A DNA stretch of 58,193 nt from a virus (lineage: Duplodnaviria; Heunggongvirae; Uroviricota; Caudoviricetes): the IMG/VR virus record IMGVR_UViG_3300045988_132327, positions 1-58,193 of that record, one strand, 5' to 3'. The position numbers and the translations under genes were made by a program. Below are positions 34,316 through 57,392 of the stretch, piece by piece; the stretch's first letter is position 1; each line of letters opens with the position of its first letter. The notes beneath the pieces were generated by a model that saw only the letters and a list, made by a program, of their open reading frames with translations, made no database searches and was not told the origin of the DNA.

Positions 34316-34323
34316 ATCACGCT

Positions 34324-36829: not shown

Positions 36830-36891
36830 CAGATAGTTCCGTGAAAAAATCTATCTACCGTATAAATCTATGCCAGTGGATTTATACACCC

Positions 36892-36925: not shown

Positions 36926-37001
36926 GCAATCGCTACCGGAGCAGTGACCGCGATCCTACTCGATCACATCGGACAGGATCAACAGTGTATATAAATACAC
37001 T

Positions 37002-37016
37002 ATGTTAGAAATTTAA
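37002..37016 (+). promoter_or_regulatory. operator-like motif ATGTTAGAAATTTAA
   Basis: intergenic between pro-like and RepL-like genes. Confidence 0.45.
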
Positions 37017-37029
37017 CTTCATTCAGCGG

Positions 37030-38028: not shown

Positions 38029-38041
38029 TATTTCCCTCCGG

Positions 38042-39724
38042 TTAATTGCTCATCACAAATTTTGCAAAGTTTATTAACTGTTCTGGCGTCCAGTTTTCCG
38101 GATCGTCACCGGACGACAACGGCGCGGATTCGTACATACCATGCTCGTTGTTTTGCTCTGATTCATTCGCCTTAAACTCTTTGATCATGGTGTTGAGAGT
38201 GTCATCGTCGATGTGCAACTGCTCAGTGAACAGATAACGCATAAACGCGTCGCTACCAGCCAGTTTCGGGTTGTTCTGGATCTGGTCCATAATTTGGGAG
38301 ATGACAGCAACAAAGTTGGCGCGTGCATCCAGTTCTCGGTTTTCCTCTTCCTGGATAGCTGTGTTCATTGAGTTGAATTGCACGTCATAAGGGCGGTTTG
38401 TTTCGGTGTAAACCTTGCCGTATTTATAAGCGAGGTGAATGTCCAGAAGCCGATAAATAGTTCGCTGGGCGGCCTGTCTGATCCAGTTCGCACGCAATGC
38501 AGCCTGGATAGCAGTTTGCTGCCAGCCGCCTTCTCCAAGCCCTCCGCTCATCTGATCAGCCCAGCCAAGCATTGTTGCGTCAATGCCGAGGCTTGCAGCA
38601 AGCTGCCGGAGGTGAAACATAACGTCTTCGATACCACTGATATCTGCGGGTATGGATTGCGTATCAATGGTGATGCCGTTCTTCCCGTCTCCCATAACAG
38701 GTATCAGATGGTTAAGCACAGTCGGAATAGCGTTGGCATTAATCGACCTTTGCGCCACCAGGTCACTATGACGCTTCAATGCCTGGCTGACGCCACGCGT
38801 ATAGTTCGCCGCATTAACCGGGTCCAGTGTGTTCGTCGTAAGAGCAATCAGGCGGTCAATTTTGGCTGCATTATTTCGCGTTGATTTCAGCGCGGCGAGC
38901 GAAGCACATAAATTAAGGTAAGGTTCATAGCTGTATTCCAGGAATGAAGTTCCGTAATTCTGCGTCTCCATTAACGGCTTATCAGCCTGATCACTTAACA
39001 GTGAGTACCCTTTTGTGCCGTAGCTAACCGGAATAACTTTATGCTGTGGCGTCCAATAGGGATTTTTCATGGAAACCAGATTCCACGGTTCGGTTATTAC
39101 TCTGCGCAAACTATGCGTATCCAGAATGTAATCACCACTGAAACCTACCAGCTGGCTACCACGATAAAACTCCTGGACGAAGTGTGGCAGAGTGTAATAA
39201 CTGGACTCAATGCCTGTTATCCCCCTGCCCTGTTCAGCATAAGGTCGGACATAAGACACCCCAAAGATCGCCATAATCATGGCCCATGAAGGAAGTCCGT
39301 CATTAATCATCGTCCCCAAATCAGCGGTTAACTCTTCACATCTACTTACTGCCTCGGCATCGGAACCATCCTTTGGCGAAAGGATGAATGCTTGTCCGGT
39401 TTTTTTTGAAGGCGCAAGCGCATGTGCAATGTGAATATTTAAAGCCGTCGAGATAGTCGGGCTTTTAGCCATCGTTTCCAGGATGTTGTACTTTTGCAGG
39501 CGGTCGCCGGGCAGTTCTGCCGAAATTGATACTGTATCTGCCGCGCTTGTCATGCCATCGCTATTGCCACCCAGTATCCCCGGACGTAAAGCGGACAGAC
39601 CAGAACGCGCAACGACACTATGACCGCTCGTAAAAACGACCGGATCGGCAGGCGTGACATCGCCACTGTTGAAGGCTTTCTTCAATGCCGACAGAAAGCC
39701 TTTGTTTTTGTCTTTCGTTGCCAT
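38042..39724 (-). CDS. putative portal protein (Prt-like)
   Basis: 560 aa; positional analogy to P1 prt-pro pair; no motif confirmation. Confidence 0.45.
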   Translation of the reverse strand: MATKDKNKGFLSALKKAFNSGDVTPADPVVFTSGHSVVARSGLSALRPGILGGNSDGMTSAADTVSISAELPGDRLQKYNILETMAKSPTISTALNIHIAHALAPSKKTGQAFILSPKDGSDAEAVSRCEELTADLGTMINDGLPSWAMIMAIFGVSYVRPYAEQGRGITGIESSYYTLPHFVQEFYRGSQLVGFSGDYILDTHSLRRVITEPWNLVSMKNPYWTPQHKVIPVSYGTKGYSLLSDQADKPLMETQNYGTSFLEYSYEPYLNLCASLAALKSTRNNAAKIDRLIALTTNTLDPVNAANYTRGVSQALKRHSDLVAQRSINANAIPTVLNHLIPVMGDGKNGITIDTQSIPADISGIEDVMFHLRQLAASLGIDATMLGWADQMSGGLGEGGWQQTAIQAALRANWIRQAAQRTIYRLLDIHLAYKYGKVYTETNRPYDVQFNSMNTAIQEEENRELDARANFVAVISQIMDQIQNNPKLAGSDAFMRYLFTEQLHIDDDTLNTMIKEFKANESEQNNEHGMYESAPLSSGDDPENWTPEQLINFAKFVMSN

Positions 39725-39907
39725 GAGTCACCGCGAAATGTTTTCAGTTTGCGGCAGCATAATCAGTATGTGATTTTTGATGATGGATCTTTTCAACTAG
39801 AAATATTGGCTGGCCCCTCTCGTAACAAAGTGAAGAATAAAACTTGAATATGCACATTGTGCGCATTAAGATTGAAAAAGTTGACCACTTTGCTGCGGAG
39901 AAATCCC

Positions 39908-40210
39908 ATGAAAAGCTCTTTAATTAATTCCAAATTACACCAACTTGCTATCAAAAATCGAGTTCCTGCATGGTCGGTTTACATGCATATCAGCCGCGCA
40001 TGTCTGAGCAATGAAAACATTTACAATCTGCAAATTCTAAGCCGGGAAGGCAGGACTTTGTTTAGCGTTGCAGAGGATTCCTATAAGGCCTGGGATATGC
40101 TGGATGACGCGTTAAGCCAATACGCGCAAACAGAAGAATGCCAAAAAGAATGGGCCAGGTACTGTGATGAAGGGATGCCATGCTGCGGTCTATTCGGCGC
40201 AGCTCTGTGA
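39908..40210 (+). CDS. hypothetical protein
   Basis: internal ATG of ORF 39857..40210; 100 aa. Confidence 0.35.
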   Translation: MKSSLINSKLHQLAIKNRVPAWSVYMHISRACLSNENIYNLQILSREGRTLFSVAEDSYKAWDMLDDALSQYAQTEECQKEWARYCDEGMPCCGLFGAAL

Positions 40211-40222
40211 ATCGATTCAACG

Positions 40223-40486
40223 ATGATATACTTCGTTGCGAATCACAGCATTGGCAAAGGGCATATTGTGAAACAACTCCCACCAAACACCCCGGAAACT
40301 ATAATTGAAATCCGCCAGCGAATGGGGCTAACGCAAACGGAGTTAGCCCACAAAATGGGGTATCAACTCCGGGCTTGGCAATTCAAAGAAGATAGAAATA
40401 AACCGAGACGCCTTATGGCTGGTGAATTTGAGTACCTGTTATTGCTTGCTGGAGAGCATCCTGAATTTATTCTTACACCACGCTAA
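40223..40486 (+). CDS. XRE-family HTH transcriptional regulator
   Basis: IIEIRQRMGLTQTELAHKMG HTH signature. Confidence 0.55.
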   Translation: MIYFVANHSIGKGHIVKQLPPNTPETIIEIRQRMGLTQTELAHKMGYQLRAWQFKEDRNKPRRLMAGEFEYLLLLAGEHPEFILTPR

Positions 40487-40507
40487 AAAAACCCGCCTGA
40501 CGGCGGG
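40485..40507 (-). terminator. rho-independent terminator
   Basis: cccgcc-tgac-ggcggg with T-run on minus strand; between convergent genes. Confidence 0.6.
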
Positions 40508-40520
40508 ATTATCAATCATA

Positions 40521-40814
40521 TCAATTCACATCAATGTCTTGATATGATTCGCCAGTATCGTCTTCGTCGTCAGGATCTCCTTCCACCTCTGGCCACTCAA
40601 CCTCCCAGCCAACAGTTTCCAGGCTCCGCAGAACAAACACCCCATCGGCATGAATGGTATTCACGATCCCCATTGCGGAATTTGTGTTGATAAAGCGTAA
40701 ATCTTGCGCAATATTTTCTTCCGAAATATCGCCTTCAAATATACGCAATGTGCCGTCATCAGAGCATTCAACAATCCCTCTAATCCCAGCGGGACTCACA
40801 ATGCTATACTTCAT
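40521..40814 (-). CDS. hypothetical acidic protein
   Basis: 97 aa, Asp/Glu-rich C-terminus; last gene of dar-like operon. Confidence 0.4.
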   Translation of the reverse strand: MKYSIVSPAGIRGIVECSDDGTLRIFEGDISEENIAQDLRFINTNSAMGIVNTIHADGVFVLRSLETVGWEVEWPEVEGDPDDEDDTGESYQDIDVN

Positions 40815-43800
40815 TTTGCAACTCCTTCATACATCCCAAGAAAAATTCCAGCACGCCGTCATTGTTTAATACAGAGTTAGTCGCCTGCTCCGGATCGGCA
40901 TACATCTGCAAGGCCATAGAAAAAATCTCAGTCGCCCTGCAATTGCTTAATGCAGGTGGCTTTGATATAAATCTGCCGCTGACAGAACTTACCGTATTTT
41001 CCATATAAATTTTAGACATATATCCATGACTTAGGTCGGTTCGCACCAAATACTCAGCACTGCCACGGCTACCAATATTATGATAAGAAACTTTACCGTT
41101 AGTTTTTGATTTAATGAAGGCTTTGGCCCTCTCCAATAGATGGGGATTTGAATGTTCTATATGGTGACCTATTTCATGCCATAATACACGCTCGTGATCA
41201 CTATTAGCATCAATTGTTATATTCCCATTTCGACTTGTAAAAGCACGAACATTGTTCTTGTGGTTAATATTTTTTAATGTAGATAAAGTCCCTCCTGAAA
41301 TAATATAGGCTTTTTCAATCGTCTCGCGAATACTGTATGCTTTACGGGAGAAAGTTTCATTATCGTGACCACTTAACTGCTCTGCTTCATCAGAAATAGC
41401 AATCCCACGACTCCATTCCTTAGACTGGTCATGTGACACATTTGACGATTCAAGAATCATGTCAAATGCGGCTCTGACTTTTTTATGTACTACATTTTCA
41501 AGCGCATTAGGATAGGCTTTTTGTCCACGTGTTAATGAAGCTATTTCATATAGTTCTGCTTGCAAGTCTTCCGGTATGTCCAGATTAAAAACAAGCATTT
41601 TTTTCAGATCATATCCAATCCCATGATCATTCTGGTGCAAAACCTCAGCAAGGTAGTCAGTGAGTTTTTCCTTATTTGACCTAACTTTATTGATTTGTTC
41701 TATAGTAAAGTCAACACGCTCCTTGATTCCGTAATATGAGGAATGCTCTGCTAATTCCACTATCTCCTTAAGCCTGACAAGTGTCTCAATATACGCATCA
41801 GCGATCTCCTCTGCCGTTAGTTCAGAGCTAACTCCGACACTGGCTGTTATTTTCCTACCAGCCGCCATAATATCGTCGATATTATGCAAGCTCTTTTTGA
41901 ATAACTTCAAAGTATTTTGGATTATGCACACCATCTCTTCTGCGCTTCCAGCTTTATTCATTTCCTTTCTAAATCTTAAAGCTGTTTTCTCTGCAATAGA
42001 CGCTGGAGATTTTAAATAGTTACCTAACCAAACAAGACAACCATTGCGCAATTCATCAATACTAAAGTCATCAGGAATATGTTTTGCTGCATTATGTAAA
42101 ACACGTATAAATTGTTCAGCGGGCACGCCTTCTTCTGATATGTTGCAAAACGTTTCAATATCACAATCAATATTTCTTTCATCTGCGAGCGAAGGAGCTT
42201 CATCTCCTTTTTCAATCGCGTCACGCAGTGCGTTAGCATAAAAATTGCTGCGTTGATAAGACAATAACATCGTTGTTAACACAGCGTCGCTGTATCCATA
42301 ACGTTTAGCCCACTCCTTAATCTCATTAACGGTGACATTGCGAATATAAAAACCAAGTTCCAAAAATACATTGCGCTTTATTTTTTTTGCGGACTCCTTA
42401 ATTTTTTCTGACACCTTCACGATTCGGATCAAGTCCTCCACGCTGGTCGCATCAGCAATTAGCTTTGAAATGTATGGTTCGACATCTCCTGAAACCGATT
42501 CAAACATGGCGAAATTAAGCCCTTTACCTTCGCCATACTCAGCCTCAATTTCATCAGAAACGGCAGATAAAATGCTACGCAGATCGACATCTCCGCCGCC
42601 GAACATATCGCCTAACGCTTGTTGCTGGTGAATAAGTTCATCGTTAATTTTTTGCGCCAGTTTCTTGAAAGCTGCCCCCATTCGCTTAGCGCTTCGGTTG
42701 TTGGCAACAATAAACAGAGCAAGCGCTTCTGCTTCCGGAGTGCTATCTCCAAACAATCCACGCTGTGCGATCACCTCTTCTACTGCCTGACCGTTATCTT
42801 TTGCTTCACGAACAAGGTTAATTGCTTCCTGTAGCGCGGCAATAGCCTGTTTATCCAGACCATTCAATTGCTCTATACCGTCTACCAGTCCGGTTACCGT
42901 GTCATGGTGAACATCACCTGAAAGCGACTGCATTTGCGCAAAATCGCTGGCTGCCGTATTTAATGCGGTAAGAATGTTACGCATTTCCGGATCTGGCTCT
43001 TCCGCCACCAGCCGAACAAGCCTTTCATCCTTGTACGCTTTGGCAAAAATTGCATTCTGGATGCGGTCGATAAGTTGTTTCGTTGGACGCCCATCGGCAG
43101 TAAGCAAACCTGCCGTCGCCGTATCACCTATTTCGCGCAAAAACGCACGAATAAACGCATCATTGGACCGCGCCAGTAGATTTCCATCATCTGAAGGATT
43201 AAATAGCGCCATGACGCTCTCAGTGAGAAATTGCGCATCCGCATACGCTTTTTCACTTGCAGCCATCTCTTGCAGATCGCTGATGTTTGAATCACGGGCA
43301 AATTGTGCGCGGTCTACATCTGTGAGTCTTTCTCGCACCAATACGGGCATAGACATTTGTGAAATGTCGTCAGGATTCAGACCAAACTCTTTTGCATGAT
43401 CGATCAGGTACTGGCGATATTCATCCGCCTGCCCTTGCTCATAGGCACGCCAGATACCCATGCTCCTTCCGTTGCCGGATTCAACAACGTTGTCCGGACC
43501 AACTATCGGCGCTCCGTGGCTGCTCATGCCGGAATCCGTTAATTGTGCCGGGCGTAAATTGGAGGCAATACGGTTAACCTGGAGTTTGCTTGATAGCCGT
43601 GTACGGTCACGTGGCTGGAGTTCTTCCGGGAAGGCCGGATTAATCGTACCGTCAAGGTTGTTCGAAATGATCAGACTGCTGGCATCAACGACCTTAAAAG
43701 CCGTCTTTACCTCTGCCCCTTTACTGGTGACTACGTAACTACTGCGCCCCTGGCGTGTTTCTCGCCTCTCTAATGAAGAAACCAGCGCAATAACACTGTT

Positions 43801-43845
43801 AATGTCTGCTGCTTCGGATAGCGCGGAAGTAACTGACTTGTTCAA
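40804..43845 (-). CDS. large virion-associated protein, DdrB-like, with C-terminal HExxH zinc-metallopeptidase motif
   Basis: 1013 aa; WHEIGHHIEH encoded at 41152..41181; position downstream of darA-like gene. Confidence 0.5.
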   Translation of the reverse strand: MNKSVTSALSEAADINSVIALVSSLERRETRQGRSSYVVTSKGAEVKTAFKVVDASSLIISNNLDGTINPAFPEELQPRDRTRLSSKLQVNRIASNLRPAQLTDSGMSSHGAPIVGPDNVVESGNGRSMGIWRAYEQGQADEYRQYLIDHAKEFGLNPDDISQMSMPVLVRERLTDVDRAQFARDSNISDLQEMAASEKAYADAQFLTESVMALFNPSDDGNLLARSNDAFIRAFLREIGDTATAGLLTADGRPTKQLIDRIQNAIFAKAYKDERLVRLVAEEPDPEMRNILTALNTAASDFAQMQSLSGDVHHDTVTGLVDGIEQLNGLDKQAIAALQEAINLVREAKDNGQAVEEVIAQRGLFGDSTPEAEALALFIVANNRSAKRMGAAFKKLAQKINDELIHQQQALGDMFGGGDVDLRSILSAVSDEIEAEYGEGKGLNFAMFESVSGDVEPYISKLIADATSVEDLIRIVKVSEKIKESAKKIKRNVFLELGFYIRNVTVNEIKEWAKRYGYSDAVLTTMLLSYQRSNFYANALRDAIEKGDEAPSLADERNIDCDIETFCNISEEGVPAEQFIRVLHNAAKHIPDDFSIDELRNGCLVWLGNYLKSPASIAEKTALRFRKEMNKAGSAEEMVCIIQNTLKLFKKSLHNIDDIMAAGRKITASVGVSSELTAEEIADAYIETLVRLKEIVELAEHSSYYGIKERVDFTIEQINKVRSNKEKLTDYLAEVLHQNDHGIGYDLKKMLVFNLDIPEDLQAELYEIASLTRGQKAYPNALENVVHKKVRAAFDMILESSNVSHDQSKEWSRGIAISDEAEQLSGHDNETFSRKAYSIRETIEKAYIISGGTLSTLKNINHKNNVRAFTSRNGNITIDANSDHERVLWHEIGHHIEHSNPHLLERAKAFIKSKTNGKVSYHNIGSRGSAEYLVRTDLSHGYMSKIYMENTVSSVSGRFISKPPALSNCRATEIFSMALQMYADPEQATNSVLNNDGVLEFFLGCMKELQNEV

Positions 43846-43939
43846 AATACACTCCCCTTACATAGAAAGCAGGAAGTGTAAAAAGTGTGTGATTTATGGA
43901 CTTACAGGAAAGTGAAAGGGGCATTTCGCCCCCTTTTGA

Positions 43940-44308
43940 TTACCCGGCATAACCGTTGGCTTTCACCCAGCTTATGGTCTGTTCTTTAGCCTGCTCCAAC
44001 GTAAGGAACTCGCCAACATAGTTTGAGATCCCACGCAGCGCATCAATAAATTCCATTTGTGTGGACTTTGTGAACACACCGCCCAGGAAGTCAGTCACTA
44101 TCTTAGGGACTTCATCTACAACAGGATCAGTCTGTTGTTGCGGTTCCGCTGCCGGTTGCGCGGCAGTCCCCAGGCCCAATTTCAGCATCACATCAACAAT
44201 CTGCTTACCAATGGTGACGCGTTGCAATACTGGCGCAGTTTTCTGCGCCTGCATTAGATCTGATAGCTCTTTACCTAATTTCAGGCGGTCTAAAACAGAG
44301 ATGGTCAT
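43940..44308 (-). CDS. DdrA-like small protein
   Basis: 122 aa, between darA-like and ddrB-like genes. Confidence 0.35.
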   Translation of the reverse strand: MTISVLDRLKLGKELSDLMQAQKTAPVLQRVTIGKQIVDVMLKLGLGTAAQPAAEPQQQTDPVVDEVPKIVTDFLGGVFTKSTQMEFIDALRGISNYVGEFLTLEQAKEQTISWVKANGYAG

Positions 44309-47726: not shown

Positions 47727-48287
47727 ATGCTTATTGGATACATTCGCGTATCAACTAATGACCAAAACACCGCTTTACAACGAAACGCCCTTGAAAGCGC
47801 AGGATGTGAGCTAATTTTTGAGGATAAGGCGAGCGGCAAAAAGGCTGAACGCCCAGGATTAAAAAAGGTTCTGCGTATTCTTTCCAGAGGTGACACCCTG
47901 GTCGTATGGAAGTTAGATCGTCTTGGGCGCAGCATGCGTCACTTGGTTGTGCTGGTGGAGGAGCTGCGTGACAGAGGAATTAACTTCCGGAGTCTCACCG
48001 ACTCCATCGACACCAGTACACCAATGGGGAGCTTTTTCTTTCACGTAATGGGGGCGCTGGCAGAAATGGAACGTGAGCTTATCGTTGAACGTACACGCGC
48101 TGGACTTGATGCAGCTCGCGCAGAAGGTCGTATAGGTGGGCGTCGGCCTAAATACCAAGAAGAAACATGGCAGCAAATGCGGCGATTGCTGGAGAATGGC
48201 ATCCCCCGTAAGCAGGTTGCAATCATCTATGATGTGGCTGTTTCCACGCTTTATAAGAAGTTTCCGGCGTCGTCATTTCAATCCTAA
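47727..48287 (+). CDS. cin: Cin/Gin/Hin-family serine DNA invertase
   Basis: 186 aa; catalytic YIRVSTNDQ motif, C-terminal HTH; adjacent cix site. Confidence 0.9.
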   Translation: MLIGYIRVSTNDQNTALQRNALESAGCELIFEDKASGKKAERPGLKKVLRILSRGDTLVVWKLDRLGRSMRHLVVLVEELRDRGINFRSLTDSIDTSTPMGSFFFHVMGALAEMERELIVERTRAGLDAARAEGRIGGRRPKYQEETWQQMRRLLENGIPRKQVAIIYDVAVSTLYKKFPASSFQS

Positions 48288-48304
48288 ACCTTGGTTTAAG
48301 AGAA
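48279..48304. other. cix-like crossover site (left) caatcctaaaccTTggtttaagagaa
   Basis: 26-bp site with dyad halves around central TT; overlaps cin stop; inverted copy at 52736..52761. Confidence 0.6.
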
Positions 48305-48334
48305 CTCGGCACAAGCGGCGAAAAGATCCCCCTG

Positions 48335-50281
48335 TTGAGCACGGCTAACACCTGGAGTGAACGCCAGACTTTCAACGGCGGGATCACCGGGACGCTGACG
48401 GGGAACGCCGATACCGCGACGAAATTAAAAACAGCACGGAAGATTAATAACGTGCTGTTTGACGGTTCTAAAGATATTTCTCTGACGCCTGCGAACCTTG
48501 ATGTCACCAGCCTGACGTTTATGAAAAACAACGGCGAAATGCCGGTTGATGCTGATCTGAATACATTTGGTCCCGTTAAGGCTTATCTGGGGATCTGGTC
48601 TAAAGCTACCTCAACTAACGCAACACTGGAGAAAAATTTCCCGGAAGATAATGCTGTCGGTGTGCTTGAGGTTTTTGCTGCCGGCAATTTTGCAGGCACG
48701 CAACGCTTTATCACGAGAGACGGCAATGTATACATGCGTAAACTCGCCAATCAGTGGAATGGTACTGATGGTCCATGGGGCGTATGGCGTCACACTCAAT
48801 CAGCTACCCGCCCTTTGAGTACGACTATAGACCTGAATACGCTTGGAGCCGCCGAACATCTTGGTTTATGGCGTAACAGTAGCTCGGCTATAGCTTCATA
48901 TGAACGCAATTATCCAGAGGAAGGCGGCTTTGCTCAGGGGATGCTTGAGATCCTCGAAGGCGGAAATTATGGAAGAACGCAACGTTATACCACTCGCCGT
49001 GGAAATATGTATGTCCGCTGTCTTGCGGCAAGCTGGGATGCATCAAATCCGCAGTGGGAACCGTGGTTAAGAGTCGGTCATCAGTCAGATAGTCGTTATT
49101 ACGACGGGGATTTGAATGATGTGACTTCACCAGGTATTTACAGCGTTACAGGTAAAGCGACCAACGGTCCAATACTGGACGGAAACGGCGTGACAGTCAT
49201 CGGTATTCTGGAAGTGTTGAGGCGCTTTGATGGTGTTAACGTATGGCAGCGTTATACAACTGCCGGAACAGGTGCAACCCTTAAAGGTCGCACGTTTGAG
49301 CGCGTCTATACCGGCAGCTCGTGGAGCGAATGGCGGGAAGTCTACACCTCGTATTCACTTCCCCTGAATCTGGGTATCGGCGGTGCAGTGGCAAAGCTCA
49401 CCAGCCTGGACTGGCAGACCCACGACTTTGTGCCGGGCAGTCTGATAACCGTTCGGCTTGATAACATGACCAACATTCCCGACGGTATGGACTGGGGCGT
49501 CATTGATGGCAACCTGATAAACATCGCAGTTGGTCCGAGTGATGATTCCGGTACTGGGCGCTCAATGCATGTATGGCGCAGCACTGTAAGTAAAGCGAAT
49601 TACCGCTTTTTTATGGTGCGTATTTCAGGAAATCCGGGAAGCCGCAAGATCACGACAAGACGTGTGCCAATTATCGACGAAGCTCAGACATGGGCGGCGA
49701 AACAAACCTTCAGCGCCGGTATTTCAGGCGAACTGTCCGGCAATGCGGCTACAGCTACAAAGCTGAAAACGCCAAGGACAATTAACGGCGTAAAATTTGA
49801 CGGCTCGGCAGATATTGAAGTCATCCCGGTTGGCGTTCCTTTACCGTGGCCTTCTGCTACTCCGCCGACAGGCTGGCTGAAATGCAACGGTGCTGCCTTT
49901 GATATGACGAAATACCCTCAACTTGCAAAGGCATACCCAACTGGAAAACTACCTGATTTACGTAGTGAGTTTATTCGTGGCTGGGATGACGGGCGTGGTA
50001 TTGATGCAGGACGTGCTTTATTGAGCATTCAGGCAGGGATGCTGGAGAAGCACCGCCATATTGTTGTTGCTAACGATGGGTATGATTCAAAAGAGGAATG
50101 GGAACTGGCGACAATCTTCAGAAGAGCATATACGCAAGGCCGGGGGCTTGATGCTGCCGATGCCGGAGGGACCCTGATTCCATCACCGACACTTCATTCA
50201 CGAGGGAGTATCGGTAATACTGGCGGGAGTGAAACCCGTCCACGAAATATTGCATTTAACTATATCGTGAGGGCTGCATAA
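48335..50281 (+). CDS. alternative tail-fibre variable part (Sv-prime-like), silent in this orientation
   Basis: 648 aa; N-terminus (STANTWSERQTFNGGITG...) near-identical to internal segment of 51473..54190; frame open back to cix. Confidence 0.7.
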   Translation: MSTANTWSERQTFNGGITGTLTGNADTATKLKTARKINNVLFDGSKDISLTPANLDVTSLTFMKNNGEMPVDADLNTFGPVKAYLGIWSKATSTNATLEKNFPEDNAVGVLEVFAAGNFAGTQRFITRDGNVYMRKLANQWNGTDGPWGVWRHTQSATRPLSTTIDLNTLGAAEHLGLWRNSSSAIASYERNYPEEGGFAQGMLEILEGGNYGRTQRYTTRRGNMYVRCLAASWDASNPQWEPWLRVGHQSDSRYYDGDLNDVTSPGIYSVTGKATNGPILDGNGVTVIGILEVLRRFDGVNVWQRYTTAGTGATLKGRTFERVYTGSSWSEWREVYTSYSLPLNLGIGGAVAKLTSLDWQTHDFVPGSLITVRLDNMTNIPDGMDWGVIDGNLINIAVGPSDDSGTGRSMHVWRSTVSKANYRFFMVRISGNPGSRKITTRRVPIIDEAQTWAAKQTFSAGISGELSGNAATATKLKTPRTINGVKFDGSADIEVIPVGVPLPWPSATPPTGWLKCNGAAFDMTKYPQLAKAYPTGKLPDLRSEFIRGWDDGRGIDAGRALLSIQAGMLEKHRHIVVANDGYDSKEEWELATIFRRAYTQGRGLDAADAGGTLIPSPTLHSRGSIGNTGGSETRPRNIAFNYIVRAA

Positions 50282-50883
50282 TGGATAACGCCGTATTAAA
50301 TAGCGAGCTTATTGCCACGAAGGCGGGGAATATTACCGTATATAACTATGATGGTGAAACTCGGGAATATATTTCCACATCAACTGAATATCTTGCTGTT
50401 GGTGTCGGTATCCCTGCATATTCCTGTTTGGATGTCCCTGGCACACATAAGGCGGGTTATGCTGTCTGCCGCTCAGCAGATTTAAACTCATGGGAATATG
50501 TGCCAGACCATCGCGGTGAAATTGTCTATAACACCGAAACGGGAGATGCCAAAGAAATCACTGCACCGGGCGACTATCCTGAAAATACAACCACTATTGC
50601 CCCGTTAACGCCATACGATAAATGGGATGGTGAGAAATGGGTGACGGATGTTGAGGCACAACACGGTGCCGCAGTAGAAGCGGCAGAAGCACAGCGCCAG
50701 TCGCTGATTGATGCAGCTATGGCTTCCATTAGTCTGATTCAACTGAAATTACAGGCTGGACGGAAGCTGACGCAAACGGAATCCACCCGACTAAACGCCG
50801 TGCTGGATTACATTGACGCGATAACGTCAATGGATACCAGCTCTGCGCCGGATGTCACCTGGCCTGAATTGCAAGAGGCGTAA
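50281..50883 (+). CDS. tail-fibre assembly chaperone (U-prime-like)
   Basis: 200 aa, follows Sv-prime inside invertible segment. Confidence 0.65.
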   Translation: MDNAVLNSELIATKAGNITVYNYDGETREYISTSTEYLAVGVGIPAYSCLDVPGTHKAGYAVCRSADLNSWEYVPDHRGEIVYNTETGDAKEITAPGDYPENTTTIAPLTPYDKWDGEKWVTDVEAQHGAAVEAAEAQRQSLIDAAMASISLIQLKLQAGRKLTQTESTRLNAVLDYIDAITSMDTSSAPDVTWPELQEA

Positions 50884-50941: not shown

Positions 50942-51469
50942 TTATTCTGGTTTATCAGGCCATTGTGGATTTGCGGCATCCACGCGACTGACCAGAACGC
51001 TGTAACGCTCCCAGGCTTCCAGTCGACTACTCTCCTCATCTGTTGCCATATTCAACCTGACTGCGCGCTCCAGCGGCAAAATCACGGATTCAGCTTCGGA
51101 AAGCAAAGTGACTTTTTGCAACTCTGCCTGTTGTTGTAGTTCATCTTGGGTATAAATCCGTTTGATTACAGCGCCATCTTTGAACATCCAGTTACCCGAA
51201 ATATCAGCCCGTCTATTGGCTGTTATATCAGGCAACTCAACAACGCTTAAACCTTCTGGATTAATTGCCGATACATCCTTATCAATAGCAACAATAACTC
51301 CCTCTGCTGTGTAAGCTAGCTTTATTGTATCTTCCTGAAAGTTTTTCACTTCCTCATACCAGTTTTTTCCGTCTTCAGACCATAACCAGATAACATTAAA
51401 ATTCTTTGTTAGCTGATATTGTTCAACGGTTTTTGGATTACCTGCGACAATGTTTTTTAAATGCTGCAT
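50942..51469 (-). CDS. tail-fibre assembly chaperone (U-like), expressed orientation
   Basis: 175 aa immediately downstream of tail-fibre gene. Confidence 0.65.
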
Positions 51470-51472
51470 AAG

Positions 51473-54190
51473 TTACACCTGCGCCACGTTATACCATGTG
51501 CCATTAATGTATTTTTGTATTGGTCTGAATACTGCCGGATCATCGCCATCAACTTCGCCGACAATGCCAAGCCCTGTAATTACATGACCTGATTTCTCAT
51601 ACATCACGCCTCTTTGCATGGTCTGAACAACACGAGTGCCCAGGCGAATATCTCGTACATAGCGAGAATCCGATTCAGCTTTGGTATATGCACCAACATC
51701 TCCCGCAGAGGGTTTGCGGGTTGTGGTATAAAACTCTGACCAGTCAGCCTCAAATCCATAACCATCTCGCGCTGAACGATAATAAATACCGCCGTTCTTA
51801 TAATTCACACGGAACTGAACCGCCGGGCAACTCCCCGCATTCATATTAAAGTGAAGAATCAATGTTGACGCTCCACTAATAGTCGCATTATAAACGCCGC
51901 TATTTGAGTTCCATCCAACAGCTTTGTCATTTCCAACAGTGCTTCCTGTTTGCCCTAAAGCAAATGCAGGTTGTTGATTTTTCGTGTTGTAGTCTCGTCG
52001 CCAGCCAGGGGCGTAATCTGCGCCATGGTTTATATAAGTAAATTGTGCATTAGTAGTTCCGCCACCGTTGGAAGTGCTCGGGGTGGTTACACGGATGGTC
52101 ATGGCACCTTTATGACCCATAACCTCAATAACGCAACCTGCAAGATGAATAGTTCCACAGCCAGTATCGGTAATAATTTTATTATTGCCGTATGACCATG
52201 AACATTTGCACATCCAGTATGGGTGATTGAATGCCCCTTGAGAATCCAGCCATTCAATCAATTGTGCCGTTGTCCAGTTCCCTGCACCTGTACTAATAGA
52301 ACTGTGAAAAGCGCGACATGCACCAATATTTTTTGTGAAGGTATCTTTTCCTGGAATATCTGCGCCGTTCTGGTTTTTCTGTAATGCTCCTGCGGCTAAT
52401 TCTACGGTTTGCTCAAGATTTAAATCTTCCGCCGTTAGCTCAATATTTTTAGAACCATCAAACGAGACGCCGTTGATAGTACATGCTGTCTGCAACTTGG
52501 TCGCTGTCGCTGCATTACCGGTAGTGTTCTGATTACCTGTTTTATTCACACCTGGCAGGTCGATATTGGCACTACCATCGAATGACACACCGCCTATTGT
52601 GCGTGCTGTTTTCAATTTCGTCGCGGTGTCGGCGTTCCCTGTCAGTGCCCCGGTGATCCCGCCGTTAAAAGTCTGGCGCGCACTCCATGTGTTAGCCGTG
52701 CTCAACAGGGGGATCTTTTCACCGCTGGTACCGAGTTCTCTTAAACCAAGGTATTGGATAACGGCAAGGACACTTGTTTTAGCCAGAATATCGCGACCGA
52801 CTGACGTTAAATCAGTCTGGGCAACAGTATCTTTACCGGTAAAGTACGGCAATTTATTTGCGCCAGTTGCAAGCCCCGCAAGTGCGGTTAAAGTTGCGTC
52901 AAGGGGCTGTTTTCCCGCGAGCGCATTTGTCATTGTTGTCGCAAAATTCGGGTCATTACCGAGCGCCTCAGCCAGTTCATTCAGCGTATCCAGAGCTTCA
53001 GGCGAAGAATCTACTAATGCAGATATAGCCGCTCTTACATAAGCGGTCGTGGCAATCTGCGTATTGTTCGTACCCTGTCCCGCAGTCGGCGCAGTAGGAA
53101 CTCCCGTTAATGCAGGGCTTGCCAAAGGTGCTTTAAGAGCAAGGGCATTGTTGATAGTTGTGCTGAAATTCGGGTCGTTATTGATCGCAGCCGCTATTTC
53201 TTTCAGAGTATCCAGTGTTCCCGGAGCGCCATTGATAAGTGCAGATATAGCCGCTCTTACATAAGCGGTCGTGGCAATCTGCGTATTGTTCGTACCCTGT
53301 CCCGCAGTCGGCGCAGTAGGAACTCCCGTTAATGCAGGGCTTGCCAAAGGTGCTTTAAGAGCAAGGGCATTGTTGATAGTTGTGCTGAAATTCGGGTCGT
53401 TATTGATCGCAGCCGCTATTTCTTTCAGAGTATCCAGTGTTCCCGGAGCGCCATTGATAAGTGCAGATATAGCTGCCTTAACAAAGGCTGCATTTGCGAT
53501 CTGCGTGCTGTTTGTGCCTTGCTCTGCCGTCGGCGCGGTTGGTATACCTTTCAGATGAGGGCTATCGATCGGGGCTTTTGTGTCAACCAAATCATGGAGG
53601 GTTTTGACAGCCAAAGGTGTAGCCGCTTTTCTCTCTTCTGTACTGCTTATTTCATTAGAGAACTCAACACCCACAGCACGATTGACACGGTATTTAAGCA
53701 CTATCATTTCTTTAGTCACAGCCGTTGCCCCGCTGGGGACCACAACTCGACATAATTCAATTTGATTCTGCCCAATAGTGTTGTCCGTGCGCGCGTATAT
53801 TCTGGCGGCACTGACAGAAGATGTGCTATCTACCTGTATCGTTTTTACACCATGTTCAAAATTAGCTTCAAGCACAATAATGTTGGTAGCCCCGGCCTTT
53901 ACCGAAACAATCACATCTTCTATTTGCTGAACGGATATCTGAACATTATTTACATCTACTGAAGCAGCCCCCTTACCTTCTGAGTTTTCAGAAGTGATAC
54001 GGACACTCAATCCTGTGCCGGGAACTGGTTCAAATCCGCAGTAAAAACCAGGCAAAACAATATTTTTTAACTTCCTGTTAAGAGCCGAGCTACTATACAG
54101 GTCGAAATATTGAACATCAGCAAGCAGTGGCTGTGTGACACCTGAAGATAGTGTCATTATGCTTTTCGTTTTATCAGCACCCATGATCAT
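51473..54190 (-). CDS. tail fibre protein S (constant part fused to currently selected variable part)
   Basis: 905 aa; three approximately 74-aa tandem repeats; cix site embedded at 52736..52761. Confidence 0.8.
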   Translation of the reverse strand: MIMGADKTKSIMTLSSGVTQPLLADVQYFDLYSSSALNRKLKNIVLPGFYCGFEPVPGTGLSVRITSENSEGKGAASVDVNNVQISVQQIEDVIVSVKAGATNIIVLEANFEHGVKTIQVDSTSSVSAARIYARTDNTIGQNQIELCRVVVPSGATAVTKEMIVLKYRVNRAVGVEFSNEISSTEERKAATPLAVKTLHDLVDTKAPIDSPHLKGIPTAPTAEQGTNSTQIANAAFVKAAISALINGAPGTLDTLKEIAAAINNDPNFSTTINNALALKAPLASPALTGVPTAPTAGQGTNNTQIATTAYVRAAISALINGAPGTLDTLKEIAAAINNDPNFSTTINNALALKAPLASPALTGVPTAPTAGQGTNNTQIATTAYVRAAISALVDSSPEALDTLNELAEALGNDPNFATTMTNALAGKQPLDATLTALAGLATGANKLPYFTGKDTVAQTDLTSVGRDILAKTSVLAVIQYLGLRELGTSGEKIPLLSTANTWSARQTFNGGITGALTGNADTATKLKTARTIGGVSFDGSANIDLPGVNKTGNQNTTGNAATATKLQTACTINGVSFDGSKNIELTAEDLNLEQTVELAAGALQKNQNGADIPGKDTFTKNIGACRAFHSSISTGAGNWTTAQLIEWLDSQGAFNHPYWMCKCSWSYGNNKIITDTGCGTIHLAGCVIEVMGHKGAMTIRVTTPSTSNGGGTTNAQFTYINHGADYAPGWRRDYNTKNQQPAFALGQTGSTVGNDKAVGWNSNSGVYNATISGASTLILHFNMNAGSCPAVQFRVNYKNGGIYYRSARDGYGFEADWSEFYTTTRKPSAGDVGAYTKAESDSRYVRDIRLGTRVVQTMQRGVMYEKSGHVITGLGIVGEVDGDDPAVFRPIQKYINGTWYNVAQV
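52736..52761. other. cix-like crossover site (right), inverted relative to 48279..48304
   Basis: reverse complement ttatccaataccttggtttaagagaa shares 16 nt with left site. Confidence 0.6.
53018..53461. repeat. perfect 222-bp tandem duplication inside tail-fibre constant region (third, diverged copy follows)
   Basis: copy 1 53018..53239, copy 2 53240..53461, identical by eye; in-frame 74-aa repeat. Confidence 0.8.
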
Positions 54191-54633
54191 CCCTCAACTT
54201 GCTCTATTGTCATGAGAATGCTGTAACGCTTACCTTTGTAGAGAGTATCCTGTTGGGCGCAAAGCACACCAAAAGCCTGATCCTCAGCATCGACAAGCAC
54301 AAGCGTGTTAAAGTCGTAAGGCGTGTTATCTGGCATTCTTTCTTGAGGGAATGCTGCGTTGATAGTGATAATCCCATCCACGCTGGACAATATCAGATCG
54401 GAAACAGCAAACTGTTGAGCATCACTCAATTTAAAATCGAGGGGAATGTCAGCAATATTCCAGCCACCAGCACCATTTGCTGTTACCAGTCCAGATTTGC
54501 ACCAATACGCCTTAGAGATAACGAAACGCGCACCTTTCCCGATCGCTGATTCGGCACGACGTGAATAGTAGTAGGAAAGCAATTGTGCCTTATACAGGCT
54601 ATTGCCATCTCTTGCCTTTAAATTTTCTGCCAT
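54187..54633 (-). CDS. tail-fibre-associated protein (R-like)
   Basis: 148 aa directly upstream of fibre gene with 4-nt overlap. Confidence 0.4.
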   Translation of the reverse strand: MAENLKARDGNSLYKAQLLSYYYSRRAESAIGKGARFVISKAYWCKSGLVTANGAGGWNIADIPLDFKLSDAQQFAVSDLILSSVDGIITINAAFPQERMPDNTPYDFNTLVLVDAEDQAFGVLCAQQDTLYKGKRYSILMTIEQVEG

Positions 54634-54729
54634 ACGAACATAGCCCCTTCATAAGCAATGAACCGAAGGAGAGTATGCTCAGTTTGTGATTTCCGTTGTT
54701 CTTCCCCCTGGCGCAGGGGGAGAGAATGA

Positions 54730-55575
54730 TCAAACAGGCGGAAGGTGGTAATCTAAAGGCCAAGCATCTAGTGGGATCACATCAAGATGTAGTTGCTTTT
54801 CTGTCGTTCTGTTCGGCATAGCATCAAATGCAATATTGTCTACCTGGCAGGAGTTATCACTACGGGATAACATATCAGCCATACACTCCGTAACATAAAC
54901 GCCTTCAATTACCGAAACATCTGTAGACAGGCTATTAAGTATTTCTGCCACTTCAGGAAATACAGCACTAAGCCGGAACGAGACACCATCGAAAACAATA
55001 TGCAATGGCAACAAAGGAGCTATTACCGTTTCAAAATCTGATAATAATTTCTGCACAGCAGCTTCTTTATCTTCTTCTCCATATGAACGATATAGCTTGT
55101 TCTGATCAACGACAACCAACCCCCTTGATGTCAGGAAGAACTCACCGAATTGAGCCTGCGCCGTAGGTATCTCAATTTCGGTCGCAAAATATGAGCCATA
55201 AGGGTGTTTTTCTATATTTACAGGAGCATACAGCGGCTCCCAACTAACCGGAATACAACCGAATTCACGCCAGAATGTCTGTTCAATAGGAAGAATAGTA
55301 CCTTTAAAGTGCACTTCATCTAAACGTTGCGCCAGAAGCATTGGTCTGCGGGTCTTATCTTTTTCGGTGATAACGAAAAAACGCCCGTATTCGGCAATGC
55401 GTGCATCCATATCCTCACTGTCCATCGTGAAGAAAGATTTCCTGTTACTTATCCGTGTTAATATTGGTTCTACAGCTTCATTCCAGACATCCTGTAAAGC
55501 GTCTATAAATTCCCCCCAGAGATGAGAATCCTGTTTTACCTTAGTTAACCGTTCCTTAAGCCAATTATCTTTCAT
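54730..55575 (-). CDS. baseplate/tail structural protein
   Basis: 281-aa ORF in tail gene array. Confidence 0.4.
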   Translation of the reverse strand: MKDNWLKERLTKVKQDSHLWGEFIDALQDVWNEAVEPILTRISNRKSFFTMDSEDMDARIAEYGRFFVITEKDKTRRPMLLAQRLDEVHFKGTILPIEQTFWREFGCIPVSWEPLYAPVNIEKHPYGSYFATEIEIPTAQAQFGEFFLTSRGLVVVDQNKLYRSYGEEDKEAAVQKLLSDFETVIAPLLPLHIVFDGVSFRLSAVFPEVAEILNSLSTDVSVIEGVYVTECMADMLSRSDNSCQVDNIAFDAMPNRTTEKQLHLDVIPLDAWPLDYHLPPV

Positions 55576-55585
55576 GCCAACCTCA

Positions 55586-57016
55586 TTACGGATAAGAAAT
55601 GCTGAAAGTAGAAGATTTTACGTCAAGATAAATAAAGTCATTAAAGTAAACAGCATCCTTCATATTTTGTATTTTTATGTCATAAGAGAGAAACATATCC
55701 AACGATTCTATTACGCGCCAAATATCTTTGACTTTTACCTGCGCATAGCATTGCTGGGAATCATCATCACTCTGTAGCAATAAACTGAACGAGGACGAAT
55801 CACGCCCAAAATTATCTTCCAACGCGGCTTTAATGGCATTTTTAGCATCGTCTATCAGAACACTTTTACGTGCAATACCAGTAAAATTTATCGTAAAAGG
55901 CTGTTCATTTGTATCTACATACTCGAACCGCTTGTTCAGTTCATTTGGAACATTCTCCAGGGCTTTAAGAATTTCTGCCTTAAGTTGCTCCTGGCTTACG
56001 CCCGGCTTATGTCCACAAAAGAAAATCTTATTGATGTTACGCACATCAAATCCTGTTATTTTTTCTTGTAACGCTTCACCCCAAACGTTCAGCCATGACG
56101 TACCGTGTACCACGTTCTGGATGAATTGACGGTAATCACCGCCCCATACGACTTGTTCATCATATGCAACATAATACTGTGCGCGATTTCGGGTTTCTTC
56201 TGTTGTTTCCATGCCACCGCCGCCAGTAATGATCGAATCGGTTTTAAACTCCAAAGACTCTATGTATTGGGCAATATTTCCAGCTGGTTCTAACTTTTGT
56301 CCTTCAGCCAAAGTATAGTCGCCAAGGCTAGCCATAACATCAATTCTAACCTGACAACCTGCTGGCGGCATCATACCCATAGAGCCGTCACCAAATTTAA
56401 CGCCAAGTTGTTCAGTTGGCTTATATGCCAATGAATAGTGCTTACTTTTGTCTCTGGACATTCGAAAAAATGGGTTGTAGACCCATTTTTTTTCTACACC
56501 ATTTGTAATAACATAAACATCAAGGCTAGAGACTTCTTTTGTTAATTCTCTGGAAAGCAACAACGTCAGGAATAGCGTTTCCTTTTCAATATCAAATGTA
56601 ACGCTTACGGCTTCGTGCTGTTTGACTTCTACACCAGAAACAGTTTTCCCAGCAGGAACAACCACACTGTTAATAATTGCTAAAGGAGTTTGGTCGCTAG
56701 CAAGCAATTCTGCCCCGGCTGGTAACGTAATATCCCGATCAGTTTTATTGGTTATCGACGTTGTTCCGTATGAAGCACTAACAAATCGTCCCACGTAGCC
56801 ACGGTCTTCAGCAACCGCCAAAATACTTGACCGGCGCGTAGCTGTTGAAATAAGCCCCTCAGTAAGACCACGACTTGCAAATGTACGAGCAATATAAATA
56901 AGCTGTGCTCCGAACACAGCGTGCATCTGCACAAACTGACTGTTTACAAATCGTGACCACCATGTATTTTCATTTAGCTTGGCGTTAAATTTGTCCAGTA
57001 ATTCTGTAATGGTCAC
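55586..57016 (-). CDS. baseplate protein, J-like
   Basis: 476 aa, typical size and position for baseplate J/gp47 family; not motif-verified. Confidence 0.45.
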   Translation of the reverse strand: MTITELLDKFNAKLNENTWWSRFVNSQFVQMHAVFGAQLIYIARTFASRGLTEGLISTATRRSSILAVAEDRGYVGRFVSASYGTTSITNKTDRDITLPAGAELLASDQTPLAIINSVVVPAGKTVSGVEVKQHEAVSVTFDIEKETLFLTLLLSRELTKEVSSLDVYVITNGVEKKWVYNPFFRMSRDKSKHYSLAYKPTEQLGVKFGDGSMGMMPPAGCQVRIDVMASLGDYTLAEGQKLEPAGNIAQYIESLEFKTDSIITGGGGMETTEETRNRAQYYVAYDEQVVWGGDYRQFIQNVVHGTSWLNVWGEALQEKITGFDVRNINKIFFCGHKPGVSQEQLKAEILKALENVPNELNKRFEYVDTNEQPFTINFTGIARKSVLIDDAKNAIKAALEDNFGRDSSSFSLLLQSDDDSQQCYAQVKVKDIWRVIESLDMFLSYDIKIQNMKDAVYFNDFIYLDVKSSTFSISYP

Positions 57017-57387
57017 GCGCCCACCCCGCTTGATTTCTGCATAACAATATCCATGCTTCCACCTTTCGCATAAAAACTAATTAATAAAGAATCTTCAGAA
57101 ATGGATGTACAGCGAATTCCCTGCACATCTAAACCAGGTAGATCTTGTCGTAGTTTTGTCATCATTCTCCCTTCAATAGCCACTTCGACTATGTGCGAAG
57201 TTTCAGAGCCGAATGGTTCATGCTTAAATTCTTCCATTGGATTTCCCCAGGACGGCAACCCATAAACGCTTCCTTCCGGGGTTCGTAACCACTCGTCAAG
57301 GCGAGCCATCCAGGCTGCTGTATTTCCCTCTGCAATAATGACACCGCTTTCGTTCGTTTGAAGTCTTGCGTCTATTTCGTAAAGCAT
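57013..57387 (-). CDS. baseplate wedge protein, gp25/GPW-like
   Basis: 124 aa; overlaps downstream gene start. Confidence 0.45.
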   Translation of the reverse strand: MLYEIDARLQTNESGVIIAEGNTAAWMARLDEWLRTPEGSVYGLPSWGNPMEEFKHEPFGSETSHIVEVAIEGRMMTKLRQDLPGLDVQGIRCTSISEDSLLISFYAKGGSMDIVMQKSSGVGA

Positions 57388-57392
57388 CAGTA

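What the first reader, a model, noticed from the sequence alone, without database searches (positions are those of the whole stretch)
53018..53461. Perfect 222-bp tandem duplication inside the tail-fibre constant region
Two identical 222-bp copies (53018..53239, 53240..53461) followed by a diverged third give three in-frame approximately 74-aa repeats. Perfect identity implies a very recent duplication or ongoing concerted evolution; copy number probably varies between isolates, changing fibre length. This is also a likely assembly-collapse hotspot.
Basis: seen in the sequence. Interest (0 to 1): 0.45.

Follow-up and report, generated by a model that had tools for sequence, protein, structure and literature searches.

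The report
Fresh repeat duplication in tail-fibre shaft
A D6/P1-type phage-plasmid has very recently gained one extra 74-amino-acid module in the shaft of its tail-fibre protein by a slip between two old repeats; this kind of module-number variation is common and already known in these phages, so the finding is real but ordinary.

Summary
In detail: 53018..53239 and 53240..53461 are identical, and the exact period-222 match runs 234 bp (456 bp of perfect tandem). It lies in the constant part (Sc) of tail-fibre gene S (51473..54190, minus strand) of a D6-type P1-like phage-plasmid, upstream of cixR. In reading phase the array is three 74-aa units, A, B and C. B is an exact chimera: the head of C plus the tail of A, joined at a 12-nt patch (GCTATATCTGCA). 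A and C are the 222-bp "repeated elements b1 and b2" already annotated in phage P1. Three other assemblies carry an S gene 2496/2496 nt identical to this one minus unit B; one of them differs from the window at only 5 positions in about 12.3 kb. So this is one recent, in-register unequal exchange or replication slip at the longest in-register identity between b1 and b2. An independent complete E. coli plasmid (pPSS-10_3) carries the identical unit B. Unit number varies among relatives (2, 3, 4, about 10) through independent events. One caveat: the window is a low-coverage short-read contig, so the exact copy number and the perfect identity partly depend on the assembler. The interest of the finding is low.

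The parts
51473..54190 (-). Tail-fibre gene S (905 aa from the first ATG; gene callers start at 54184, giving 903 aa). It consists of constant part Sc plus the currently joined variable part Sv.
   Evidence: ORF list and translation; megablast to S of P7, D6 and P1; Pfam Phage_fiber_2 and gp37_C.
52749..54190 (-). Sc, the constant N-terminal part of S (about 480 aa), shared by both alternative fibres.
   Evidence: The outer end of the inverted repeat is at 52759; D6's annotated cixR 20-mer maps to 52739..52758.
53342..53563 (-). Unit A (aa 210-283), the b1-type 222-bp element.
   Evidence: Its head and tail are 89% and 91% identical to P1 b1, against 66% and 62% to P1 b2. It is identical to unit A of the 2-unit allele.
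53120..53341 (-). Unit B (aa 284-357), the extra unit. It is an exact chimera: nt 1-102 equal unit C and nt 91-222 equal unit A.
   Evidence: It is absent from L087, L088 and L089 and 222/222 identical in plasmid NZ_AP027688.1.
52898..53119 (-). Unit C (aa 358-431), the b2-type 222-bp element.
   Evidence: Its head and tail are 83% and 81% identical to P1 b2. It is identical to unit C of the 2-unit allele.
53018..53473 (.).
53462..53473 (-). 12-nt patch GCTATATCTGCA in unit A (offsets 90-101).
53240..53251 (-). 12-nt patch in unit B; this is the exchange junction.
53018..53029 (-). 12-nt patch in unit C.
52739..52758 (.). cixR, the Cin recombination site at the Sc/Sv junction.
   Evidence: Same sequence as the annotated cixR of phage D6; it lies at the outer end of inverted-repeat arm 52602-52759.
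48281..48438 (.). Left inverted-repeat arm of the invertible C segment (contains cixL).
   Evidence: 158 nt, 91% complementary to 52602-52759.
47727..48287 (+). cin, a serine invertase (186 aa).
   Evidence: Pfam Resolvase plus HTH_7.
48335..50281 (+). Sv', the alternative variable fibre part, joined to Sc after inversion.
   Evidence: ORF lacking its own N-terminal part, with a Pfam Collar domain; the layout matches P1, D6 and P7.
50281..50883 (+). U', tail-fibre assembly protein for Sv'.
   Evidence: Pfam Caudo_TAP.
50942..51469 (-). U, tail-fibre assembly protein for Sv.
   Evidence: Pfam Caudo_TAP.
54187..54633 (-). R, the P1 gpR homologue upstream of S.
   Evidence: Precomputed Pfam hit PF26881 Phage_P1_tail_fiber_R; synteny with P1 and D6.

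Best explanation
This is a recent in-frame tandem duplication of one 222-bp (74-aa) shaft module in Sc, the constant part of the P1/D6-type tail-fibre gene S. The parental allele had two diverged modules 64% identical to each other: A (P1's 'repeated element b1') and C ('b2'). A single in-register misalignment between A and C resolved inside GCTATATCTGCA, their longest shared in-register stretch at 12 nt. The misalignment could have been replication slippage or template switching, or unequal exchange between sister or co-resident plasmid copies. The product is A-B-C, where B is the head of C joined to the tail of A. Because the exchange was exactly one period out of register, B is a complete module, and no new junction is created in the protein other than the chimeric combination. 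The inferred consequence is a trimeric fibre shaft one module longer. Because the change is in Sc, it applies to both alternative fibres that Cin inversion produces (Sc-Sv and Sc-Sv'). The new 234-bp perfect direct repeat should make the allele unstable, prone to contract back to two units or expand further. Shown here: the anatomy, the pre-duplication allele, the shared junction, and the copy-number polymorphism. Inferred: the molecular route of the exchange, the change in fibre length, and any effect on adsorption.
For: The two 222-bp copies are exactly identical, with a 234-bp exact lag-222 run. Unit B is identical to C over nt 1-102 and to A over nt 91-222, overlapping in a 12-nt patch; A and C are 64% identical. 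A matches b1 and C matches b2 of P1, P7 and D6, and b1 and b2 are annotated as 222-bp repeats in P1 records M81956 and AF234172. Protein P0005 (829 aa, E. coli) equals the window's S minus unit B with 0 mismatches. The S genes of L087, L088 and L089 are 2496/2496 nt identical to the window's gene minus B; in them both A and C carry the 12-nt patch, and 12 nt is the longest exact lag-222 run. L088 differs from the window at 5 positions in about 12.3 kb apart from the 222 bp. The independent complete plasmid NZ_AP027688.1 (pPSS-10_3) has the same three-unit layout and a unit B that is 222/222 identical. Relatives carry 2, 3, 4 or about 10 units, with mosaic middle units at different breakpoints, so such events recur.
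Against: The window is a short-read, roughly 8x-coverage SPAdes-style contig. A perfect tandem with a unit longer than k forms a loop in the assembly graph, so the number of traversals and the identity of the two copies are not independently established. The exact 903-aa product is on record only for this contig. The 35-nt chimeric junction was not found in IMG/VR, GTDB representative genomes or JGI metagenomes. The direction of change (2 to 3 units rather than 3 to 2) rests on B being a chimera and on 2-unit outgroups; the 2-unit contigs could in principle be revertants or collapsed assemblies. No structural or functional data on fibre length were obtained, because the AlphaFold monomer model was unusable.
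Confidence: 0.8

Rival explanations
1. Assembly artefact. The real replicon in this sample has two units, like L087, L088 and L089. The extra unit would come from the assembler traversing a graph loop created by chimeric reads or by a second, pPSS-10_3-like strain in the same sample.
For: The contig name shows a short-read assembly at about 7.8x k-mer coverage. The 2-unit allele with otherwise identical sequence is on 5 contigs, whereas the 3-unit product is on record only for this contig. Unit B of pPSS-10_3 is made entirely of k-mers compatible with the window's A and C, so a mixture could close the loop.
Against: A loop requires real reads across the chimeric junction. Assemblers usually collapse tandem repeats rather than invent them. 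The same unit B exists in an independent complete plasmid, so the allele exists in nature. This scenario needs two related plasmids in one sample.
Confidence: 0.1
2. The duplication is real, but the true array in this replicon is longer (4 or more units, or heterogeneous), and the short-read assembly collapsed it to a single loop traversal.
For: The perfect tandem is 456 bp, longer than typical short reads. 4-unit alleles with 113-126-aa exact runs exist in relatives.
Against: There is no positive evidence. pPSS-10_3, which has the same event, has three units.
Confidence: 0.08
3. An old three-unit array kept identical by ongoing gene conversion (concerted evolution), rather than a recent duplication.
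For: pPSS-10_3 differs from the window at unit-A offsets 96 and 113 and unit-C offsets 40 and 50. At A96 and C40 pPSS-10_3 has the state seen in outgroup b1 or b2 units while the window has the state of B. Taken alone, that could look like homogenisation in the window's lineage.
Against: The 2-unit allele already has the window's states at all those sites (T, C, G, G), so no conversion is needed; the pPSS-10_3 differences are secondary. The widespread older 3-unit alleles have clearly diverged units and show no homogenisation. B is an exact two-part chimera with one switch point.
Confidence: 0.02

Closest known systems
'Repeated elements b1 and b2' in Sc of phage P1 gene S (GenBank M81956 and AF234172 feature tables; from memory, described by Sandmeier, Iida and Arber, J Bacteriol 1992, a paper not held in the library)
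   Same: Same gene, same position upstream of cixR, same 222-bp/74-aa period. Unit A is 89-91% identical to P1 b1 and unit C 81-83% identical to P1 b2.
   Different: P1, P7 and D6 have two units that are about 60% identical to each other at DNA level. Here there is a third unit, an exact b2-head/b1-tail chimera with no substitutions. The N-terminal part of Sc is D6-type, not P1-type: the array starts at aa 210-211 rather than 294.
Quasi-repeats of the T4 long and short tail fibres (gp34, gp12, gp37), Pfam PF03406 Phage_fiber_2
   Same: A repeated shaft module in a trimeric fibre. In gp34 a rod about 400 A long correlates with seven quasi-repeats, each an alpha-helix plus beta-sheet motif (PMC3004832). 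The S protein passes the PF03406 cut-off.
   Different: The T4 repeats are old and diverged, and their number is fixed in the reference phage. Here one unit was added so recently that no substitution has occurred. The 74-aa unit also carries a second motif (..AP..LDTL.E.A.A...DPNF..) that matches other solved fibres (9d93 gp4, 6v8i gp68).
Short-homology tandem duplication and deletion in E. coli replicons (replication slippage or unequal sister-strand exchange between close direct repeats; own knowledge, e.g. work of Lovett and colleagues)
   Same: The exchange resolved within a 12-nt identity between two sequences 222 bp apart. The product is an exact in-register duplication with no other change.
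   Different: The route (RecA-dependent or not, host or phage recombination functions) was not tested here.
Variation in shaft-repeat number in other viral fibres, e.g. the adenovirus fibre shaft (own knowledge)
   Same: Fibre length is set by the number of tandem shaft modules and differs between related viruses.
   Different: Unrelated protein fold and host. No phenotype has been measured here.

Membership tests
P1-type Sc 'repeated element b' array | 222-bp (74-aa) period, in frame | tested here: met
   TRF period 222; three 74-aa HMM hits back to back.
P1-type Sc 'repeated element b' array | Located in the constant part of S, upstream of cixR | tested here: met
   Array at 52898..53563; cixR at 52739..52758; inverted repeats.
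P1-type Sc 'repeated element b' array | Sequence homology to the annotated b1 and b2 of P1 | tested here: met
   Unit A is 89/91% (head/tail) identical to P1 b1 and unit C 83/81% to P1 b2; the cross-comparisons give 55-67%.
P1-type Sc 'repeated element b' array | Preceded by an a-type element (a0/a1 in P1) | tested here: inconclusive
   aa 176-207, just upstream of the array, give the Pfam Phage_fiber_2 hit and resemble the end of P1 a1 (..AATPKAVKSIKDLADTK). No formal alignment was made. P1-type and D6-type Sc differ in this region.
Cin-type invertible tail-fibre (C-segment) system of P1, P7 and D6 | Serine invertase gene adjacent to the segment | tested here: met
   47727..48287, Pfam Resolvase plus HTH_7.
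Cin-type invertible tail-fibre (C-segment) system of P1, P7 and D6 | Inverted repeats with cix sites bounding two opposed Sv/U sets | tested here: met
   158-nt inverted repeats with 4163 nt between the arms; Sv/U on the minus strand and Sv'/U' on the plus strand; cixR identical in sequence to the D6 annotation.
Cin-type invertible tail-fibre (C-segment) system of P1, P7 and D6 | Actual inversion of the segment | not testable with these tools
   Needs reads or an experiment. Indirect hint: many database S proteins are 'partial' and end at or just after the Sc/Sv boundary, e.g. at 477 aa.
D6-like phage-plasmid | Genome-scale nucleotide similarity to phage D6 | tested here: met
   Window 20000..44000 is 97.3% identical to MF356679 over 83% of its length.
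Pfam PF03406 Phage_fiber_2 | Whole-protein score above the gathering cut-off | tested here: met
   27.7 bits against a cut-off of 22.
Contingency (phase-variable repeat) locus | High-frequency reversible change in repeat number with a selectable phenotype | not testable with these tools
   Only population-level polymorphism and recurrent independent events were shown. No rates or phenotypes are available.

The most novel reading that the evidence does not exclude
The b-repeat array in Sc might be more than passive repeat drift. It could work as a fast, reversible length switch for P1/D6-type tail fibres. A rare short-homology expansion creates a long perfect repeat, which then expands and contracts at high frequency. 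A lysogen population would then continually produce virions with fibres of different reach. This would be a second diversity generator layered on Cin inversion, acting on both alternative tips at once.
Probability: 0.12. Interest if true: 0.45.

Novelty: new member of a known kind. Interest (0 to 1): 0.2.

Why it matters
The value is mainly as a clean textbook example. It is an effectively isogenic pair of phage-plasmids, differing at 5 positions in about 12.3 kb, with two versus three tail-fibre shaft modules. The exact exchange point is identified, and the pre-duplication allele is still circulating. That pair could be used to measure what one shaft module does to fibre length, adsorption rate and host range, and how unstable a 234-bp perfect repeat is in a low-copy plasmid prophage. 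In practical terms, it warns that the S genes of P1/D6-like elements in short-read assemblies may have the wrong module number. It does not reveal a new kind of system.

Tried and rejected
(1) An AlphaFold2 monomer model of aa 170-445 gave mean pLDDT 34.6 and pTM 0.20, and was all-helical at low confidence. It was unusable, so no fold search was run and no module length could be measured. (2) The idea that P1's 132-bp element a1 is an older partial b-unit with the same breakpoint was rejected: a1 is at most 39% identical to any in-register part of b1 or b2, and a0/a1 form a different repeat family. (3) Exact scans for the 35-nt chimeric junction in IMG/VR, GTDB representative genomes and JGI metagenomes found nothing; the only other carrier came from BLAST against plasmids and complete E. 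coli genomes. (4) Homogenisation by gene conversion in the window's lineage was suggested by the pPSS-10_3 comparison but rejected once the 2-unit allele was found to carry the window's states already. (5) Literature searches for a description of Sc repeat-number variation in P1/D6-like elements found none in the held library; Lobocka 2004 (PMC523184) is not held; a search for the paper behind PDB 9d93 returned no phage-structure paper among the five listed. (6) A sequence search of Sc against the PDB gave only one partial hit, 9d93. A profile of the unit added 6v8i and 9k09, each covering only half of the unit.
Full report
OBSERVATION. Tandem Repeats Finder reports period 222, 2.1 copies, 99% matches, score 912. 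The exact period-222 identity is 234 bp long (53018..53251 = 53240..53473), so 456 bp are perfectly tandem. Beyond that block, the period-222 identity falls to roughly 50-75% per 37-nt bin for about 110-150 bp on each side, and then to background. This is the only long-period tandem array in the window.

CONTEXT. The array lies in a 905-aa minus-strand ORF, 51473..54190. The locus has the full layout of the P1/P7/D6 invertible tail-fibre operon:
- a serine invertase, cin, at 47727..48287 (+);
- an N-terminally incomplete fibre ORF with a Collar domain, Sv', at 48335..50281 (+);
- two opposed Caudo_TAP assembly genes, U' at 50281..50883 (+) and U at 50942..51469 (-);
- S itself, followed upstream by the gpR homologue at 54187..54633 (-).
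158-nt inverted repeats at 48281-48438 and 52602-52759 bound the segment. The 20-nt cixR annotated in phage D6 maps to 52739..52758. The constant part Sc is therefore about 52749..54190, and the duplication sits 270 bp or more inside it. Window 20000..44000 is 97.3% identical to phage D6 over 83% of its length, so the element is a D6-type P1-like phage-plasmid.

ANATOMY. In the protein's own phase there are three 74-aa units: A (aa 210-283, 53342..53563), B (aa 284-357, 53120..53341) and C (aa 358-431, 52898..53119). A and C are 64% identical at DNA level. B is identical to C over its first 102 nt and identical to A over its last 132 nt. The two parts overlap in a 12-nt patch, GCTATATCTGCA, which encodes A-I-S-A. 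B is thus an exact two-part chimera with a single switch point.

PRIOR KNOWLEDGE. P1's GenBank records already annotate two 222-bp "repeated elements" b1 and b2 (plus a0 and a1) in Sc (M81956; AF234172). Unit A is 89/91% (head/tail) identical to P1 b1, and unit C is 83/81% identical to P1 b2. The same correspondence holds for P7, D6 and IMG/VR relatives. The repeat family is therefore known. What is particular to this window is the third unit.

THE PRE-DUPLICATION ALLELE EXISTS. Deleting unit B from the window's protein gives exactly P0005, an 829-aa E. coli tail-fibre protein, with 0 mismatches over 829 aa. P0005 is encoded on five contigs of 90-95 kb, of which three were read: L087 (GCA_032143795.1), L088 (ENA ERZ27272433 k119_70237) and L089 (GCA_021028215.4). 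In all three the S gene is 2496/2496 nt identical to the window's gene minus B. Units A and C both carry the 12-nt patch, and 12 nt is the longest exact in-register match between them. Outside the gene, L088 differs from the window at only 5 positions in about 12.3 kb. L087 and L089 diverge in the baseplate region. The simplest history is one in-register misalignment between b1 and b2, resolved in their longest shared stretch, with no substitutions since. Whether this was replication slippage or template switching, or unequal exchange between sister or co-resident copies, is an inference from general knowledge of short-homology rearrangements. It was not tested here.

INDEPENDENT OCCURRENCE. 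BLAST of unit B finds one record with 100% identity in PLSDB and among 5,426 complete E. coli genomes: NZ_AP027688.1, plasmid pPSS-10_3 of E. coli PSS-10 (human faeces, Ecuador). It aligns with window 52602..57911 in a single block at 98.1% identity with almost no gaps, so it has the same three-unit layout. Elsewhere it is 94-97% identical and has a different invertible-segment content. Its copies are not perfect: the longest exact lag-222 run is 148 bp. It differs from the window at unit-A offsets 96 and 113 and at unit-C offsets 40, 50 and 109, while B is identical. B of pPSS-10_3 is not a chimera of that plasmid's own A and C, so it descends from the same event, with later patch-wise change in A and C towards states seen in other alleles. 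The 3-unit allele is thus real, has spread, and has had time to diverge slightly in one lineage.

COPY-NUMBER VARIATION. Among 80 IMG/VR loci plus P1, P7 and D6, 74 have two units. In these, adjacent units are 54-83% identical at DNA level and exact lag-222 runs are 27 bp or less. Five other loci have three units (L002, L004, L006, L031, L032). L003 has four, with a 337-bp exact run. L037 has nine or ten. Among the 120 protein clusters closest to this Sc, 43 have two units, 71 have three and 6 have four. This sample is biased towards three because the query has three. The widespread 3-unit alleles have three clearly diverged units, pointing to an old expansion. All six 4-unit alleles have 113-126-aa exact runs, pointing to recent events. 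The extra units in L003, L004, L006 and L031 are mosaics with different switch points, so expansions have occurred repeatedly and independently. Several Sv tip types occur with 2, 3 or 4 units, so shaft length and receptor tip assort independently.

PROVENANCE AND CAVEAT. The exact 903-aa product is on record only on ENA ERZ1303606 NODE_291_length_58193_cov_7.826052, which is this window. The name indicates a SPAdes-type short-read assembly at about 8x k-mer coverage. In a de Bruijn graph, a perfect tandem with a unit longer than k is a simple loop. The chimeric-junction k-mers must come from reads, so at least one extra unit is supported. However, the number of traversals (three units or more) and the identity of the two copies (both read off one edge, with small bubbles popped) are assembler-dependent. 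Two points reduce the concern. Unit B is confirmed base for base by pPSS-10_3. Units A and C are confirmed by the 2-unit contigs. Conversely, the 2-unit contigs may themselves be short-read assemblies (k119 is a MEGAHIT-style name), so collapse there cannot be formally excluded. Even so, two units is the state in P1, P7 and D6.

LIKELY CONSEQUENCE (INFERRED). A profile of the unit matches solved phage fibre proteins in two halves. The head (aa 1-32) matches 9k09 "Tail fiber protein". The tail (aa 26-71..AP..LDTL.E.A.A...DPNF..) matches 9d93 "Tail collar fibers gp4" (E = 2e-11) and 6v8i "Fiber Upper gp68". The exchange point lies at the boundary between the two halves, and the duplication is exactly one period, so B should fold as a normal module. 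In T4 gp34, a rod about 400 A long correlates with seven quasi-repeats of an alpha-helix plus beta-sheet motif (PMC3004832). By analogy, one extra unit would add several nanometres to the shaft. Because the change is in Sc, it would apply to both Cin-selected fibre forms. The monomer AlphaFold model was unusable (pLDDT 34.6), so no length was measured. The 234-bp perfect direct repeat should be prone to deletion or further expansion by homologous recombination. This expectation comes from general knowledge and is untested here.

VERDICT. The feature is a new allele of a known repeat array, produced by an ordinary mechanism in a gene family where module-number variation is common. Its main merit is the unusually clean reconstruction: an exact chimera, an identified 12-nt exchange patch, and a surviving parental allele on an almost identical backbone. 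Interest is low (0.2).

Noticed in passing
database proteins P0013, P0017, P0020, P0023, P0024, P0030 and others: Many public S proteins of D6/P1-like plasmids are annotated 'partial' and end at or shortly after residue 477, the Sc/Sv boundary. Short-read contigs seem to break at the Cin-invertible segment, presumably because both orientations are present in the culture, rather than at the b-repeat array.
   Followed up: no
NZ_AP027688.1 (pPSS-10_3), L085/L086; corresponds to window 52898..53563: In this plasmid, units A and C differ from the window at five sites while B is identical. At unit-A offset 96 and unit-C offset 40 the plasmid has the state typical of other b1 or b2 alleles. This suggests patch-wise recombination with other Sc alleles after the duplication. 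Its S gene runs across the start of the circular record, and the PLSDB gene table lists no gene there.
   Followed up: partly
L001 (M81956.1), record positions 2005..2226: The old P1 record gives 'crossover site for site-specific DNA inversion cixR' the same coordinates as repeated element b2. AF234172 places cixR at the Sc/Sv junction, about 160 bp away. This looks like a feature-table error in M81956.
   Followed up: partly
L037 (IMGVR_UViG_3300027796_000310), protein residues about 112-816: A related fibre gene carries nine or ten consecutive 74-aa units, with adjacent units 68-86% identical at DNA level. It is the longest array seen in this survey.
   Followed up: no
L003 (IMGVR_UViG_2579778873_000001) and proteins P0001-P0003, P0052, P0054, P0057: These 4-unit Sc alleles have long exact repeats (a 337-bp run in L003; 113-126-aa runs in the proteins). 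They are further recent duplications, on both D6-type and P1-type Sc backgrounds.
   Followed up: partly
window 20147..22380: A cluster of four tRNA genes on the minus strand: Met (CAT), Ser (TGA), Thr (TGT) and Arg (TCT). P1-type relatives annotate Met, Thr and Asn tRNAs in the matching region, so the tRNA set seems to differ.
   Followed up: no
window 55000..58193: The baseplate genes upstream of R are mosaic among otherwise near-identical plasmids. L087 has about 200 differences between 55000 and 57500. L089 and pPSS-10_3 diverge sharply from about 57400 onward. L088 is nearly identical throughout.
   Followed up: partly
window 48281..48438 and 52602..52759: The inverted repeats of the invertible segment are only 158 nt long and 91% complementary. 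From memory, P1's are about 0.6 kb. All three 2-unit relatives (L087-L089) show the same 158-nt match with 14 mismatches.
   Followed up: no
window 26818..33654 (-): A very long ORF (2278 aa). The matching stretch of phage D6 includes genes annotated 'defense against restriction' and 'DEAD/DEAH box helicase family protein', so this may be a DarB-like gene. It was not examined.
   Followed up: no
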